Below the pieces are notes generated by a model. The model did not search any database. It was not told where the DNA came from and worked only from the letters and a program-made list of their open reading frames with translations. Positions 7,911 to 64,000 of a stretch of DNA of 64,000 nucleotides are shown here, in pieces. The DNA comes from Clostridia bacterium (GTDB lineage Bacteria; Bacillota; Clostridia; Oscillospirales; Acutalibacteraceae): positions 22,492 to 86,491 of the forward strand of contig JAFQCT010000020.1 of the NCBI GenBank assembly GCA_017399405.1, read 5' to 3'. How positions within the stretch are numbered: position 1 is the first letter of the stretch; each line of letters opens with the position of its first letter. Position numbers and translations under genes: made by a program.

Positions 7911-9974
7911 ATGGACCAAAAGTATGAAGCATTATTTACACCTTGGAAAATCGGTAATGTTGAGATTAAAAACAGAATAGTTATGTGCCCAATGGGTGGT
8001 ACATCACTTTTTGGCTGGTTTGAACTTGGCGGTTGCCATTTTGACAAGGAAGCAGCAAAGCTCTTTATTGAGCGAGCAAACAACAATGTTGGTCTTATTA
8101 TCCCCGGTATTGCACCACTTCGTGATACATTCTGGGGCAAATGGCTTTGGCAAAATCCAAAAATGTTTGAAGAACTTAAAGAGTTTATGGACGAAATCCA
8201 TAAAACAGGTGCAAAGTTGTTCATTCAGTTGACTGCAGGTATGGGCAGAAGCTGGGCAATTACAGAACTTGTAGCACCACTTCATAGAAACAAATTTACT
8301 CGTGCTCTTGTTAAGCCTATTCTTGATACATCTCACGAATTAGCTTCACCTAGCCCACAACCATCTCGTTGGGCTCCCGATATTATCTGTCCTGAAATGA
8401 CAAAAGAGCAGATTCACGAAATTATTGAAGCATTTGCTAAAACTGCAAAACTCTGCCGTGATGCAGGTGTTGACGGTGTTGAAGTTCACGCAGTTCACGA
8501 AGGTTATCTTCTTGACCAGTTTGCTATTGAATTTTTCAATAAGCGTACTGACGAATACGGCGGAAACTTCGAAAACAGATATCGTTTCGCAGTTGAAGTT
8601 GTTAAGGCTATTAAAGAATCTTGCGGTGACGACTATCCTGTTTCACTTCGTTACTCAGTTGAGTCAAAGATGAAAGGCTTCTGCGAGGGTGCTATGCCTG
8701 GCGAAGATTATACAGAAGTTGGTCGTAATATGGAAGAGTCAGAAAAAGCAGCAAAATACTTGCAGGATGCAGGTTATGATATGCTTAATGCTGACAATGG
8801 TACATATGACTCTTGGTACTGGGCACATCCACCAATGTATATGCCACAGAACTGTAACCTTGATGACGTAGCACATATTAAAAAGTTTGTTGATATTCCT
8901 GTTGTTTGTGCAGGTAGAATGGAACCTGATGTTGGTGCTAAAGCCGTTGCAGATGGCAAAATCGACGGTGTTGGTGTTGCTCGTCAGTTCCTTACTGACC
9001 CTGAATGGATTACAAAGATTATTGAAGACAGAATTGAAGATATCAAACCTTGTATCTGCTGTCACGCAGGTTGCTTCAACTTCTCATCATCAAAGGGACA
9101 CGCAAATACTCAGGACCTTCTTGATACAATGGGACTTTCTCGTTGTGCTCTTAATCCAAAGACAATGCAGTCAAAGAAATACAAAATCGAGCCTGCTAAG
9201 AAACAGAAGAAAATTGCTGTTATCGGTGGCGGTATCGGTGGTATGGAAGCTGCTATGGTTTGTGCAAAGCGTGGCCATAAGGTTGACCTTTATGAAAAGA
9301 GCGACAAACTCGGCGGTGTATTTATTGCTGCTGCAGCTCCATCATACAAAGAAAAAGACCGTGACCTTATTGCTTGGTATAACCGCGAAATTCAGCGTTA
9401 CGAGGCAATCACAATTCATATGAATACAGAAGTTAAAGACCTTGCTTCACTTGGTGCTGACGAAGTAATCGTTGCAACTGGTTCAGTTGCAAATAAGATT
9501 CCTGTAAAGGGTGCTGACAAGGCAATTGAAGCAATCGACTTCCTTTTAGGCAACAAGACAGTTGGTGAAAATGTTGTAGTTGTAGGTGGTGGTCTTACAG
9601 GTTGCGAAATCGCTTATGAACTCTACCTTCAGGGCAAGAAACCTGTAATCGTTGAAATGCAGGATGACCTTGTTACAACTCCTGGCGTTGCTCTTGCTAA
9701 CACAAGTTATCTTCGTGATTTCTTCAAGACAAACAAAGTTCCTGTTTATCTTGAAAGCAGAACAACAGAAATCCGTGATGATGGCGTTACAATCGCAACT
9801 AAAGACGGTAACACAATCGACATTCCTGCTGATACAGTTATTCTTTCAGTCGGTTACAAACCAGCACCAATCGCAGAAAAGAGCAAGAAAGTACATATTA
9901 TCGGTGACGCTAACAAAGTCGGTAATCTTCGTACAGTTATCTGGGGTGCTTGGGATGTTGCAATGAAGTTATAA
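7911..9974 (+). CDS. Old-yellow-enzyme-family FMN/FAD/[4Fe-4S] oxidoreductase (2-enoate reductase / 2,4-dienoyl-CoA reductase-like)
   Basis: The N-terminus is an OYE TIM barrel (RIVMCPMGG, VEVHAVHEGYLLDQF). It has the Cys cluster CICCHAGC. The C-terminus has two Rossmann dinucleotide motifs (VIGGGIGG, VVGGGLTG). Confidence 0.85.
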   Translation: MDQKYEALFTPWKIGNVEIKNRIVMCPMGGTSLFGWFELGGCHFDKEAAKLFIERANNNVGLIIPGIAPLRDTFWGKWLWQNPKMFEELKEFMDEIHKTGAKLFIQLTAGMGRSWAITELVAPLHRNKFTRALVKPILDTSHELASPSPQPSRWAPDIICPEMTKEQIHEIIEAFAKTAKLCRDAGVDGVEVHAVHEGYLLDQFAIEFFNKRTDEYGGNFENRYRFAVEVVKAIKESCGDDYPVSLRYSVESKMKGFCEGAMPGEDYTEVGRNMEESEKAAKYLQDAGYDMLNADNGTYDSWYWAHPPMYMPQNCNLDDVAHIKKFVDIPVVCAGRMEPDVGAKAVADGKIDGVGVARQFLTDPEWITKIIEDRIEDIKPCICCHAGCFNFSSSKGHANTQDLLDTMGLSRCALNPKTMQSKKYKIEPAKKQKKIAVIGGGIGGMEAAMVCAKRGHKVDLYEKSDKLGGVFIAAAAPSYKEKDRDLIAWYNREIQRYEAITIHMNTEVKDLASLGADEVIVATGSVANKIPVKGADKAIEAIDFLLGNKTVGENVVVVGGGLTGCEIAYELYLQGKKPVIVEMQDDLVTTPGVALANTSYLRDFFKTNKVPVYLESRTTEIRDDGVTIATKDGNTIDIPADTVILSVGYKPAPIAEKSKKVHIIGDANKVGNLRTVIWGAWDVAMKL

Positions 9975-60115: not shown

Positions 60116-60191
<76 letters not shown>

Positions 60192-60237: not shown

Positions 60238-60257
60238 GCCACTTTTTCTTTGTTTTT

Positions 60258-60283
60258 AGGGTACACTTTTAGGGTACACTTTT
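60258..60283 (+). repeat. Tandem 13-mer AGGGTACACTTTT x2
   Basis: Perfect tandem duplication at 60258-60270 and 60271-60283. Confidence 0.75.
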
Positions 60284-62910: not shown

Positions 62911-63363
62911 GTGCCTTTTATGGATGGTACAGTAGTGGCTACAGGTATGACAGGATTAACAGAAGTTGTGACTTGGCTCACAGGTCAATTCGGCGGTGTC
63001 ATCGACACTATCGTAGCAGAACCTATTCTATTGTTAAGCGTTGGCATCTTCGCTTGTGGTAGTGTTATCGGTATGTGGCAATGCCGATATAAAATCGGGG
63101 AATTAAGCGAGAAGGCTCTAAAAATGCTAACTCGAACCGAAGGCTTGACTAACAATCAAGTCAGGGGCAACGCGTAGGGAATGAAACTATTTTATAGAAT
63201 ATAATTTCCCCAAGAGTCTCCGACAATTCAAAGTGAATTGAAAAAGTACGCTAAACTAGGTTGGAATTGACCAACCGATGAAAATGGGCGAAAGTCCTAG
63301 AGTACAAGATAAAAAACTTGTAGTTAATAACAAATGCTTGCTCACAGACTTATTCGTGGTTAA
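62911..63363 (+). CDS. Coat-like small membrane protein A, apparently split: exon 1 62911 (or ATG 62920)..63072, exon 2 63337..63363
   Basis: The joined product ends ...AEPILLLSVGIFACGSVIG-LAHRLIRG*. This parallels paralogue B, ...GQPILLLVLGIFALGSIIGLVRRLMK*. The unspliced read-through (to 63177) has no such basic tail. Confidence 0.5.
63073..63336 (+). ncRNA. Candidate ORF-less group I self-splicing intron (264 nt)
   Basis: P1 is TATCGGT (63066-63072) paired with GCCGATA (63083-63089), with the splice-site U.G pair. P10 is GGCAA (63077-63081) paired with TTGCT (63338-63342). The 3'-terminal base is G at 63336. Interleaved pairings GGGGAA/TTCCCC and AACTAT/GTAGTT resemble P3/P7. A GAAA-tetraloop hairpin lies at 63286-63297. 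Confidence 0.5.
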
Positions 63364-63390: not shown

Positions 63391-63651
63391 ATGTCTGCTT
63401 TAACTACGATTTTTAATTTTTTATATGTTTATCTTCGTTGTTTTGCTTGTTATATTTTCGGCGGTCGGTTAGATGTTAATTACTTTTCTAATCTCGAACA
63501 GATAGAATTTGTGCGAAATATTATAAAAACTGCTTCAGGTGGTATTTATGAAAATGGTTTATCTTTTCCGGGTCAGCCTATATTATTACTTGTTTTAGGT
63601 ATATTTGCTTTAGGCTCTATTATTGGTCTTGTTCGCAGATTAATGAAATAA
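63391..63651 (+). CDS. Coat-like small membrane protein B (uninterrupted paralogue)
   Basis: 86 aa with a hydrophobic N-terminal leader, then ...GQPILLLVLGIFALGSIIG followed by the basic tail LVRRLMK. A TM helix plus a basic C-terminus is the filamentous-phage major-coat pattern. Confidence 0.55.
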   Translation: MSALTTIFNFLYVYLRCFACYIFGGRLDVNYFSNLEQIEFVRNIIKTASGGIYENGLSFPGQPILLLVLGIFALGSIIGLVRRLMK

Positions 63652-63755: not shown

Positions 63756-63881
63756 ATGGATTTTATATTAAATGTATTTCAAAATATACCCGATATGCCT
63801 TTAATTGAGTATATCGGCGGTGCTTTTGCTTTTGCTTTCTTATTCTTTTTATTTTACAAACTAACGGGGGTGCTAAAATGA
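63756..63881 (+). CDS. Small single-TM protein (41 aa)
   Basis: ATG at 63756 is preceded by AAGGTGG. My hand translation is MDFILNVFQNIPDMPLIEYIGGAFAFAFLFFLFYKLTGVLK. Its stop overlaps the next start (ATGA). Confidence 0.45.
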   Translation: MDFILNVFQNIPDMPLIEYIGGAFAFAFLFFLFYKLTGVLK

Positions 63882-64000
63882 TAACGGGTTATTTTGGCGT
63901 TCCGGGGTGCGGTAAAACCACACTAGCAACAATGAAAGCGAGAAAGTTAAATAAACAGATTAAAAGAGATATTAAACGCGTTGCAAAGGGTAAAAAAAAG
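63878..64000 (+). CDS. P-loop NTPase, 3'-truncated by the window; candidate Zot/pI-like assembly ATPase
   Basis: The N-terminus MITGYFGVPGCGKTTLA places Walker A right at the N-terminus, as in Ff gene I (VYFVTGKLGSGKT, recalled from memory). Only 41 codons are visible. Confidence 0.45.
   Translation, partial: MITGYFGVPGCGKTTLATMKARKLNKQIKRDIKRVAKGKKK

What the first reader, a model, noticed from the sequence alone, without database searches (positions are those of the whole stretch)
62911..63363. A coat-like gene is interrupted by a 264-nt ORF-less intervening sequence with group I intron boundary signatures
Read straight through, ORF 62911-63177 ends its TM helix (...EPILLLSVGIFACGSVIG) with a non-basic tail, unlike its neighbour paralogue (...QPILLLVLGIFALGSIIGLVRRLMK*). 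Deleting 63073-63336 joins codon GGT (63070-63072) in frame to CTT GCT CAC AGA CTT ATT CGT GGT TAA (63337-63363). The result is ...GSVIG-LAHRLIRG*, which aligns position for position with the paralogue tail G-LVRRLMK*.

The junctions look like a group I intron:
- Exon-1 end TATCGGT (63066-63072) pairs with GCCGATA (63083-63089), only 10 nt inside the insert. This places the splice-site U opposite G (the conserved U.G of P1).
- Loop bases GGCAA (63077-63081) can pair with exon-2 TTGCT (63338-63342), forming P10.
- The last base of the insert is G (63336, omega-G).

Inside, GGGGAA (63097-63102) / TTCCCC (63206-63211) and AACTAT (63185-63190) / GTAGTT (63320-63325) interleave like the P3/P7 pseudoknot. 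They resemble the GGGGA/UCCC and GACUA/UAGUC pairings of the T4 td intron as I recall it. Local hairpins include a 7-bp stem at 63142-63162, CAATTC/GAATTG at 63224-63240, and GGGC-GAAA-GTCC at 63286-63297.

There are caveats. The segment between the putative P7 and P3' strands is unusually long (~15 nt). I see no clear P9. I did not fold the sequence computationally.

Group I introns are known in tailed phages of Gram-positives. I know of none in a filamentous-phage structural gene.
Basis: partly seen in the sequence, partly recalled or inferred. Interest (0 to 1): 0.85.

Follow-up and report, generated by a model that had tools for sequence, protein, structure and literature searches.

The report
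Self-splicing intron inside inovirus coat gene
A 264-base group I-type (self-splicing) RNA intron interrupts a small coat-like gene of a filamentous prophage in a gut Clostridia genome; such introns are routine in tailed phages, but I found no report of one in a single-stranded-DNA filamentous phage.

Summary
The insert is exactly window 63073-63336. Fifteen related protein clusters encode the uninterrupted gene ending ...GS/AVIGLAHRLIRG. One (P0001) is 100% identical to the predicted spliced product, and DNA alignment to intron-less alleles fixes both boundaries without ambiguity.

[quoted passage not shown] It belongs to a large clade (96 matches in 80 viral loci) that splits gyrase A, terminase and tail genes of tailed phages. 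Across 77 members 95.9% of pair cells are paired, against 66% in shuffles and 33-42% for slid partners.

Its P3 and P7 are wrong, and P9 does exist.

A diverged copy sits at the same site in a complete circular 7.2-kb inovirus-like genome (Zot-like ATPase, G2P-type Rep) seen in two samples.

Rfam RF00028 scores below threshold for the whole clade. Splicing itself is inferred, not shown.

Verdict: a new member of a known kind in an unreported host class (ssDNA filamentous phage). Interest is moderate.

The parts
62920..63072 (+). Exon 1 of the coat-like gene. The ATG at 62920 is the start used by gene callers; an upstream GTG at 62911 is possible. It encodes MDGTVV...FACGSVIG.
   Evidence: Between window and L005 the last 99 nt differ at 24 nt but only 2 aa.
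63073..63336 (+). Group I-type intron, 264 nt, ORF-less.
   Evidence: Boundaries come from the intron-less alleles L001-L004. CM clade membership. Covariation. MFE z-score -3.79.
63337..63363 (+). Exon 2: LAHRLIRG plus the stop codon.
   Evidence: There is one synonymous difference in 27 nt between the two intron-bearing alleles. It aligns with the paralogue tail.
63066..63089 (+). P1: exon end UAUCGGU plus A63073, paired with the internal guide sequence 63082-63089. U63072.G63083 lies at the 5' splice site. Loop bases 63077-63081 can pair with exon 2 at 63338-63342 (P10).
   Evidence: Compensatory change 63066/63089 in L005. P1 is 91.4% paired in the family. The P10 pairing is an inference from complementarity only.
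63095..63101 (+). P3, 5' strand (UCGGGGA). It pairs with 63217-63223.
   Evidence: All 7 of 7 pairs show double changes in the family; 90.5% paired.
63108..63134 (+). P4 (63108-11/63131-34) and P5 (63114-16/63126-28), with conserved AA junctions.
   Evidence: 95.8% paired, and all 7 pairs covary. Junction conservation.
63142..63162 (+). P6 hairpin (63142-48/63156-62).
   Evidence: 98.9% paired. Five of 7 pairs change on both sides between window and L005.
63172..63176 (+). P7, 5' strand (GCGUA). It pairs with 63247-63251 (UACGC), forms a pseudoknot with P3, and is the presumed guanosine-binding helix.
   Evidence: P7 was not part of model R1, yet it is 98.1% paired, with GC/AU covariation at 63174/63249 (36 AU, 34 GC). 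It is 100% paired in the MAFFT alignment A8.
63177..63210 (+). Hairpin between P7 and P3' (P7.1/P7.2-like). The stem is 63177-81/63206-10, with a conserved loop UGAA...AAUAUAAU.
   Evidence: 99.7% paired, and 4 of 5 pairs change on both sides versus L005. Loop conservation.
63211..63223 (+). Conserved junction CAAGAG (63211-16) and the P3 3' strand UCUCCGA (63217-23).
   Evidence: C76, A76, G76, A76 and G73 of 77 sequences.
63224..63251 (+). P8 hairpin (63224-29/63235-40), J8/7 AAAAAG (63241-46), and the P7 3' strand (63247-51).
   Evidence: P8 is 95.7% paired. J8/7 conservation.
63256..63322 (+). P9 domain: P9 (63256-58/63298-300), P9a (63259-64/63271-76), P9.1 with a GAAA loop (63286-89/63294-97), and P9.2 (63303-08/63317-22).
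   Evidence: 99.3-100% paired; 98.6-100% in the structure-agnostic alignment.
63323..63336 (+). 3' tail GUUAAUAACAAAUG, ending in the terminal G (omega-G, 63336).
   Evidence: GUUAAUAAC is conserved family-wide. Relatives also end in G immediately before conserved GyrA codons.
63391..63651 (+). Uninterrupted paralogue (86 aa) with a homologous TM helix and basic tail.
   Evidence: BLASTP gives 16/25 identities across the splice junction, E 1e-9.
63878..64000 (+). Start of the Zot/pI-like assembly ATPase. It runs off the window; the protein is 216 aa in L007.
   Evidence: Pfam Zot 20.9 bits (cut-off 20.3). PHROG Zot-like 1.8e-8 and 'protein I of M13' 1.2e-3.
60116..60191 (+). tRNA-Met. Its 3' 46 nt (60146-60191) form the left attachment repeat of the prophage.
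   Evidence: The direct repeat L007 3227-3272 / 9034-9079 is 93% identical.

Best explanation
Window 63073-63336 is an ORF-less group I intron of IA2-like architecture. It lies inside a 59-codon coat-like gene of an inovirus-type (filamentous) prophage integrated at a tRNA-Met gene of a gut Clostridia bacterium.

**Proposed mechanism**
1. The gene is transcribed with the intron.
2. The intron's internal guide sequence (63082-63089) pairs with the last bases of exon 1 to form P1, placing U63072 opposite G63083.
3. The core folds as P3-P8, P4-P6 and the P7 pseudoknot, braced by the P7-P3' hairpin and a three-hairpin P9 domain.
4. A guanosine bound in P7 attacks after U63072.
5. The terminal G63336 then takes its place, and the freed exon-1 3'-OH attacks after G63336.
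6. GGU is thereby ligated to CUU. The mRNA now encodes ...GSVIG-LAHRLIRG*, a single-pass membrane protein with a basic tail like that of its neighbouring paralogue.

**What is shown**
- The exact insertion boundaries.
- The existence of uninterrupted alleles.
- The fold, by covariation.
- Clade membership with introns of tailed phages.
- Purifying selection on both exons in intron-bearing phages.
- A complete circular phage genome carrying the intron.

**What is inferred**
- The catalytic steps, from established group I chemistry.
- That the gene encodes a virion coat protein.
- How the intron arrived. There is no homing endonuclease. The nearest relatives sit in gyrA after ...CGGU, the same four bases that end exon 1 here.
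For: 1. **Intron-less alleles.** Fifteen protein clusters end G(S/A)(V/I)IGLAHRLIRG, and P0001 equals the spliced product at 100%. DNA alignment gives unambiguous boundaries.
2. **The read-through tail is not conserved.** P0007 has 34 extra residues and P0016 has 18, with a different end.
3. **Window versus L005 intron.**
   - 26 of 66 pairs changed; 25 are still paired and 22 changed on both sides.
   - There are 48 differences in 132 paired columns against 17 in 153 unpaired columns.
   - Exon 2 has 1 synonymous change in 27 nt.
4. **Family covariation.**
   - 77 sequences are 95.9% paired, against 66.1% in shuffles (0/500 reach the observed value) and 33-42% for slid partners. The covariation score is 0.600 against 0.166.
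   - P7 was left out of the model and is 98.1% paired.
   - The structure-agnostic MAFFT alignment is 97.8% paired against 75.1% in shuffles.
5. **Relatives lie in split genes of tailed phages.**
   - AR9 gyrA (CDS annotated as joined from 3 pieces), phiR1-37 gyrA, Clostridium phage terL and a Staphylococcus phage tail gene.
   - There are 96 CM matches in 80 viral loci.
6. **Splice sites check out in relatives.** In the nearest relative, L120, the same model positions as splice sites join ...GELHPHG to DSSIYLALV..., the conserved GyrA motif. AR9 and phiR1-37 introns also end in G right before conserved codons.
7. **Circular relative.** L174 has a 141-nt terminal overlap, and an independent contig is a 100% identical circular permutation. 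This gives a circular ~7.2-kb genome with a Zot-like ATPase, a G2P-type Rep and the intron.
8. **Weak Rfam signal.** RF00028 gives a sub-threshold hit on the right strand that places P3, P4, P5 and P3' as covariation does.
Against: - No RNA or biochemical evidence of splicing is available here.
- Rfam RF00028 scores 14.9 bits against a gathering threshold of 50. It fails on all clade members tested, so no curated model confirms 'group I'.
- Clade covariance models do not detect the experimentally studied T4 td intron. I found no clade member with published splicing data.
- The region between P7 and P3' is one composite hairpin rather than two separate hairpins.
- There is no P2.
- P10 has no covariation support.
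- The 'coat' identity rests on size, one TM helix, a basic tail and gene neighbourhood only. There are no Pfam, PHROG or PDB hits.
- The att-bounded prophage copy in the window's genome (5.8 kb in L007) has no recognisable Rep and may be defective.
- An uninterrupted paralogue could mask loss of function.
Confidence: 0.85

Rival explanations
1. The insert is a group I intron relic that no longer splices. The interrupted gene would then be inactivated or make only the 85-aa read-through product, and the uninterrupted paralogue (63391-63651) supplies the function.
For: - A paralogue with the same TM helix and tail lies 28 nt downstream.
- The window's prophage copy lacks a recognisable Rep and may be decaying.
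- The intron has no P2 and scores poorly with RF00028.
- There are no splicing data.
Against: - Between two diverged inovirus alleles, 25 of 26 changed pairs stay paired and junction nucleotides stay at the family consensus.
- Exon 2 keeps its frame and codons, with 1 synonymous change.
- The read-through tail is not conserved.
- The intron-bearing phage exists as a complete circular genome in two samples.
- The window allele is identical in 18 contigs.
Confidence: 0.08
2. The insert is a DNA-level mobile insertion (a miniature transposon or recombination scar) with no RNA role, and its resemblance to an intron is incidental.
For: - It is ORF-less, small and present or absent among alleles.
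- There is no curated Rfam match above threshold.
Against: - There is a single copy in the window.
- There are no terminal inverted or direct repeats at the ends.
- Massive compensatory base-pair covariation, including a pseudoknot, only makes sense for an RNA.
- Relatives precisely split essential genes in frame-restoring fashion.
Confidence: 0.02
3. The intron splices, but incompletely and by design. Intron retention would yield an alternative 85-aa coat isoform without the basic DNA-binding tail, or would throttle coat production. On this view the intron acts as a regulatory switch rather than a neutral passenger.
For: - The read-through frame stays open for 34 codons in the window allele and 18 in L005.
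- The gene sits in a dosage-sensitive structural module.
Against: - The read-through peptides differ in length and sequence between the two alleles.
- No ligand-sensing element adjoins the intron.
- Most related phages do without the intron.
Confidence: 0.05

Closest known systems
Group I introns in gyrase/topoisomerase A genes of jumbo and other tailed phages (Bacillus phages AR9/PBS1, Yersinia phage phiR1-37, uncultured viral contigs L120 and L115)
   Same: - They belong to the same sequence-and-structure clade: R1 scores are 149-195 bits.
- They share the same helices, the same conserved junctions (CANGAG, GAUGAAAAU, GUUAAUAAC) and a terminal G.
- One subclade shares the guide sequence UGCCG(U/A) and exon ends ...CGGU.
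   Different: - The hosts are dsDNA Caudoviricetes and the interrupted genes are DNA-metabolism genes.
- Several carry an ORF or extra 5' sequence.
- The window's intron is ORF-less, lacks P2, and sits in a 59-codon membrane-protein gene of an inovirus-like element.
Introns in structural or packaging genes of Gram-positive tailed phages (Clostridium phage vB_CpeS-1181 terminase large subunit; Staphylococcus phage vB-SscS-F1 major tail protein)
   Same: - They are in the same clade (127 and 120+70 bits).
- They lie in late or structural genes of Firmicutes phages.
   Different: - These are tailed dsDNA phages.
- Both loci have an ORF between the two gene halves.
T4 td intron and the IA2 subgroup as described in the literature (IA2 features quoted in PMC4227781)
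   Same: - The order of elements matches: P1, P3-P6, P7, extra hairpin(s) in domain 7, P3', P8, P7', then an extended P9 with P9.1 and P9.2.
- The short tail is similar: (G/U)AACA(A/U)..G.
- The td layout is my own reading of the td sequence (verified as T4), not a tool result.
   Different: - There is no detectable sequence homology: R1 and R2 give no significant hit on td.
- td has P2 and an endonuclease ORF.
- Here there is one composite hairpin rather than two hairpins.
IStrons (group IA2 intron fused to an IS200/IS605 or IS607 element; PMC4227781)
   Same: Both have an IA2-like ribozyme from Firmicutes, and both can sit in frame in protein-coding genes.
   Different: There is no IS part. 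Only 14 nt follow P9.2 and there is no transposase ORF. The smallest reported IStron copies are 482 nt.
Group II intron in an IMG/VR inovirus contig (Nucleic Acids Res 2025, PMC12350094)
   Same: It is also a self-splicing intron in an inovirus-type genome, recognised there by Zot and G2P domains. The authors flagged it as unprecedented for ssDNA phages.
   Different: It is a different intron class, with different chemistry and mobility (an RT-encoding group II intron). The case here is a small ORF-less group I intron in a coat-like gene.

Membership tests
Group I intron | The 5' splice site follows a U that forms a U.G wobble in P1 with an internal guide sequence. | tested here: met
   - U63072.G63083 lies within an 8-bp P1.
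- A compensatory change occurs at 63066/63089 in L005.
- P1 is 91.4% paired in the family.
- The relative L120 has its exon ending ...CGGU, which joins to restore HPHG|DS.
Group I intron | The last intron nucleotide is G (omega-G). | tested here: met
   - G63336, with the boundary fixed by intron-less alleles.
- The L120, AR9 and phiR1-37 relatives end in G directly before conserved GyrA codons.
Group I intron | A conserved core of P3-P8 and P4-P6 helices with a P3/P7 pseudoknot. | tested here: met
   - 62 of 66 pairs have double changes. Cells are 95.9% paired, against 66.1% in shuffles and 33-42% for slid partners.
- P7 was left out of the model and is 98.1% paired.
- This is confirmed on a MAFFT alignment.
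Group I intron | P10 pairing between the guide region and the start of exon 2. | tested here: inconclusive
   There are 5 complementary bases, 63077-81/63338-42, in the window and 4 in L005. There is no covariation to test it.
Group I intron | A guanosine-binding pocket in P7. | not testable with these tools
   P7 has a nearly invariant G63172-C63251 pair (73/75) and conserved flanking J6/7 A residues. This is consistent but not diagnostic.
Group I intron | Guanosine-dependent self-splicing that yields ligated exons. | not testable with these tools
   This needs RNA work. Indirect support comes from conserved exon 2 and uninterrupted alleles.
Group I intron | A match to the curated model Rfam RF00028 at its gathering score. 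| tested here: not met
   - The score is 14.9 bits against 50.
- The model also misses every clade member tested, while finding other introns in the same viral loci.
- The failure therefore reflects model coverage. It is not a defining biological feature.
Subgroup IA2 | Extra hairpins in domain 7 (P7.1, P7.2). | tested here: inconclusive
   There is one covarying hairpin, 63177-63210, between P7 and P3', with a conserved internal and apical loop. It is not two separate hairpins. The IA2 definition is taken from PMC4227781.
Subgroup IA2 | An extended P9 domain with three paired regions. | tested here: met
   P9/P9a, P9.1 and P9.2 are each at least 99% paired, with double changes.
Subgroup IA2 | Detectable homology to a reference IA2 intron (T4 td). 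| tested here: not met
   R1 and R2 give no significant hit on the td locus L173.
IStron | An IS element or transposase ORF inserted after P9.2. | tested here: not met
   Only 14 nt follow P9.2, and there is no ORF above 30 aa in the insert.
Inovirus-like filamentous phage (host element) | A Zot/pI-type assembly ATPase. | tested here: met
   Pfam PF05707 scores 20.9 bits (cut-off 20.3). PHROG Zot-like gives 1.8e-8 and protein I of M13 gives 1.2e-3. The match is weak but consistent.
Inovirus-like filamentous phage (host element) | A rolling-circle Rep of G2P type and a small circular genome. | tested here: inconclusive
   - This is met in the intron-bearing relative L174/L005: PF23343 at 4.6e-19 and a circular 7.2-kb genome.
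- No Rep was found in the 5.8-kb att-bounded copy matching the window.
Inovirus-like filamentous phage (host element) | The interrupted gene is a major coat protein. | tested here: inconclusive
   - The protein is 59 aa with an acidic N-terminal part, one hydrophobic helix and a basic tail. It sits in a run of small TM genes next to the Zot-like gene.
- There is no hit in Pfam, PHROGs or PDB sequences.

The most novel reading that the evidence does not exclude
The intron crossed from dsDNA tailed phages into an ssDNA filamentous phage without a homing endonuclease. It would have done so by reverse splicing into a coat-gene transcript (or single-stranded DNA) at a site that shares only ...CGGU with the gyrA homing site of its nearest relatives, followed by copying back into DNA. 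That would make it a natural, datable example of RNA-guided ectopic transposition of a group I intron.

**What the evidence allows**
- The intron is ORF-less.
- No endonuclease family was found in the 7.2-kb genome.
- The guide sequence UGCCGA differs by one base from the UGCCGU of gyrA relatives.

Ordinary recombination, or trans-acting endonucleases from a co-infecting phage, are at least as likely.
Probability: 0.15. Interest if true: 0.75.

Novelty: new member of a known kind. Interest (0 to 1): 0.55.

Why it matters
[quoted passage not shown] In the paper library searched I found no report of one in an inovirus or any ssDNA phage. A single group II intron in an inovirus was flagged as unprecedented in 2025.

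If splicing is confirmed, three things follow:
- Even 6-7-kb filamentous phages, under extreme pressure for compactness, tolerate a self-splicing intron in a small structural gene.
- Intron clades circulate between dsDNA and ssDNA phages of gut Clostridia.
- Gene callers mis-annotate such coat genes. The database protein P0007 is the read-through artefact.

The work also documents a large phage intron clade that Rfam RF00028 does not detect.

Tried and rejected
- **Rfam at gathering and permissive thresholds.** RF00028 is sub-threshold here and on clade members, so it is not usable as a membership test.
They are no better than shuffles.
- **My own extra 2-bp 'P6' (63137-38/63166-67).** It is only 60.7% paired and is rejected.
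- **Link to T4 td.** A single-sequence model (R1) and a 35-sequence 3'-domain model (R2) give no significant match.
- **BLAST of a second clade member against phages.** No classic, experimentally studied intron (Twort, SPO1) appeared.
- **The AR9 genome paper.** It could not be read.
- **Viral scans with short patterns.**
  - GAAAAAGTACGCTAAAC gave 4 loci, of which 2 were true relatives.
  - AGAATATAATN5CCANGAG gave mostly chance hits.
- **JGI metagenome scans.**
  - The exact spliced junction was not found.
  - The exon-intron 19-mer gave 7 loci, and none was the intron.
- **Genome collection scan with the coat alignment.** Only two MAGs matched (Acutalibacteraceae and Ca. Fimenecus). Neither matches intron model R1, and the L171 coat match is uninterrupted.
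- **Coat-like proteins against Pfam, PHROGs and PDB.** No hits.
- **Pfam on the other ORFs of the 7.2-kb genome.** No homing endonuclease or other family was found.
Full report
**What is in the sequence.** The window's last 4 kb carry a run of small genes on the + strand that looks like a filamentous-phage module.
- The genes are a 76-aa protein, a 291-aa protein with a signal-like N-terminus, five 54-78-aa hydrophobic proteins, ORF 62911-63177, an 86-aa ORF (63391-63651), a 41-aa ORF, and the start of a P-loop protein at 63878.
- In an identical contig (L007) the P-loop protein is 216 aa. It matches Pfam Zot (20.9 bits, cut-off 20.3), PHROG 'Zot-like' (1.8e-8) and 'protein I of M13' (1.2e-3).
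- The module lies next to tRNA-Met (window 60116-60191).
- In L007 the 3' 46 nt of that tRNA recur 5.8 kb downstream at 93% identity, just past a tyrosine integrase. This delimits an integrated element.

**The insert and its boundaries.**
- Fifteen are 57-65-aa proteins ending G(S/A)(V/I)IGLAHRLIRG. One of them, P0001, is 100% identical to the prediction from the ATG at 62920.
- Two clusters are read-through forms. P0007 equals the window (18 contigs, ten of them in the 50-200 kb class). P0016 is a diverged allele.
- DNA of the uninterrupted alleles comes from ENA metagenome assemblies (contigs L001-L004) and differs from the window at synonymous sites. These are therefore separate DNA alleles, not spliced cDNA.
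- They align so that ...GTTATCGGT is followed directly by CTTGCTCA....
- The insert is therefore exactly 63073-63336, and the flanking bases allow no other register.
- The read-through tails differ in length and sequence between the two intron-bearing alleles.
- The uninterrupted paralogue aligns across the junction at 16/25 identities.

**The fold.** The insert folds more stably than shuffles (z = -3.79).
- The diverged allele L005/L174 has a 258-nt intron at the same site, and it gave the first covariation.
  - After covariance-model alignment, 26 of 66 proposed pairs differ between the two alleles.
  - Of these, 25 remain paired and 22 changed on both sides.
  - Substitutions concentrate in paired columns: 48 of 132, against 17 of 153 in unpaired columns.
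- My structure, in window coordinates:
  - P1 63066-73/63082-89, with U63072.G63083
  - P3 63095-101/63217-23
  - P4 63108-11/63131-34
  - P5 63114-16/63126-28
  - P6 63142-48/63156-62
  - P7 63172-76/63247-51
  - a hairpin between P7 and P3', 63177-81/63206-10
  - P8 63224-29/63235-40
  - P9 63256-58/63298-300, enclosing P9a 63259-64/63271-76 and P9.1 63286-89/63294-97
  - P9.2 63303-08/63317-22
  - a 14-nt tail ending in G63336

**A large clade of phage introns.**
- BLASTN of the insert against GenBank phages hit 22 records at 68-81% identity. All inspected hits lie inside split genes:
  - AR9/PBS1 gyrase A (CDS annotated as a three-piece join);
  - phiR1-37 gyrase A;
  - Clostridium phage vB_CpeS-1181 terminase large subunit;
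  - Staphylococcus phage vB-SscS-F1 major tail protein.
- Covariance model R1 was built from the window sequence plus my structure, with P7 omitted as a pseudoknot. It scores these hits at 120-175 bits.
- A scan of IMG/VR with the conserved motif GATGAAAATGN3GNAAN3CNAGAG returned at least 120 loci. R1 found 96 matches in the 80 loci I searched.
- On 77 aligned members the structure is 95.9% paired, against 66.1% in column shuffles (0 of 500 as high) and 33-42% when partners are slid.
  - 62 of 66 pairs show changes on both sides, and the covariation score is 0.600 against 0.166.
- P7 was not in the model, so it is not favoured by the alignment. It is 98.1% paired, with 36 A-U and 34 G-C at 63174/63249.
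- A structure-agnostic MAFFT alignment of the 3' domain gives 97.8% paired, against 75.1% in shuffles and 31-44% for slid partners.
- Junction nucleotides are nearly invariant: CANGAG before P3', AAAA in J8/7, GAUGAAAAU, and GUUAAUAAC.
So does a 2-bp helix I had added (60.7%).

**Splice sites checked in an independent gene.** The nearest tailed-phage relative is L120 (195 bits).
- Taking the same model positions as splice sites removes 253 nt. This joins ...KCANVVGNVMGELHPHG to DSSIYLALVRLSQPWVMRYPLIDFHG..., the universally conserved GyrA motif.
- Its exon 1 ends ...CGGU and the intron ends in G.
- The AR9 and phiR1-37 introns likewise end in G immediately before (E/R)YHPHG or NFGS codons.
- The clade's elements are therefore removed at these positions in genes that cannot function when split.

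**Is it a group I intron?** The architecture is that of a group I intron:
- P1 with U.G at the splice site;
- P3-P9 with the P3/P7 pseudoknot;
- a terminal G;
- possible P10.

It is closest to IA2 as described in the literature, which has extra hairpins in domain 7 and an extended P9 (PMC4227781).

No curated model confirms this.
- RF00028 gives 14.9 bits here (E 0.31 for a 601-nt search), although it places P3, P4, P5 and P3' as covariation does.
- It misses the clade generally, while finding other introns in the same viral loci.
- Neither R1 nor a 35-sequence 3'-domain model (R2) detects T4 td.

The assignment therefore rests on structure and context, not on homology to an experimentally characterised ribozyme. 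Self-splicing is inferred.

**The host element.**
- The diverged intron-bearing phage is complete. Contig L174 (7352 nt, MEGAHIT k = 141) has an exact 141-nt terminal overlap.
- A contig from another sample is a 100% identical circular permutation that reads across the join.
- This ~7.2-kb circle encodes the Zot-like protein, a G2P-type rolling-circle Rep (PF23343, 4.6e-19), an HTH regulator and the run of small membrane proteins.
  - Zot plus G2P is the same pair of markers that a 2025 study used to call an inovirus.
- No homing endonuclease or other Pfam family was found in its remaining ORFs.
- Related coat genes occur in MAGs of Acutalibacteraceae and Ca. Fimenecus. NCBI labels the window's read-through protein as from a Clostridia MAG.
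- 'Coat' remains an inference from size, topology and position.

**Origin.**
- The subclade nearest the window shares the guide sequence UGCCG(U/A) and 5' exons ending ...CGGU.
- The coat gene offers AUCGGU.
- Together with the lack of an endonuclease, this leaves room for ectopic insertion by reverse splicing. Recombination with a co-infecting phage is equally possible. I could not discriminate between them.

**Novelty.** Full-text searches found no report of a group I intron in an ssDNA or filamentous phage.
- The terms paired 'group I intron' with filamentous phage, inovirus, ssDNA phage and major coat protein. One further search paired 'intron' alone with Inoviridae.
- The only related item is a single group II intron in an IMG/VR inovirus, noted as unprecedented (PMC12350094).
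- The library is incomplete, so this is absence of evidence.

I rate the finding a new member of a known kind in a new host class. It is solidly supported computationally, and of moderate interest.

Noticed in passing
window 60116-60191; L007 3227-3272 and 9034-9079: The prophage is integrated at tRNA-Met. A 46-nt copy of the tRNA 3' end (93% identical) lies 5.8 kb downstream, past a tyrosine integrase. A second integrase-bearing element follows in tandem at the same site. No Rep gene was recognised inside the 5.8-kb element.
   Followed up: partly
L007 3324-3364 and 8904-8944 (window about 60243-60283 for the first copy): A 41-nt repeat containing a tandem TTTTAGGGTACAC motif sits just inside both ends of the integrated element. 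It may be integrase arm sites or an origin.
   Followed up: no
L119 (3418 nt), L053, L083: The same viral loci carry several introns of two kinds side by side: RF00028-positive ones (73-117 bits) and members of the RF00028-negative clade described here. L119 has at least four introns in 3.4 kb.
   Followed up: partly
window 63337-63363 versus 62974-63072: Between the two intron-bearing alleles, exon 2 differs at 1 of 27 nt, while the last 99 nt of exon 1 differ at 24. The low divergence next to the 3' splice site could reflect co-conversion with the intron or a P10 constraint.
   Followed up: no
P0019 and P0017 (protein clusters): P0019 fuses the coat N-terminus to a short-chain dehydrogenase segment (PF13561), and P0017 duplicates the N-terminal segment. 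These are probably assembly chimeras or rearranged alleles.
   Followed up: no
L014 1241-1306 (AR9 gyrA intron 2): In AR9 the exon appears to end about 66 nt upstream of where model R1 starts. That intron therefore probably has extra 5' structure (P1/P2) that the window's intron lacks, and the hairpin that R1 aligned as P1 there may be P2.
   Followed up: partly
NCBI/ENA protein P0007 (window 62920-63177): Public annotation records the 85-aa read-through product as the gene product. This is an annotation error if the intron splices.
   Followed up: yes
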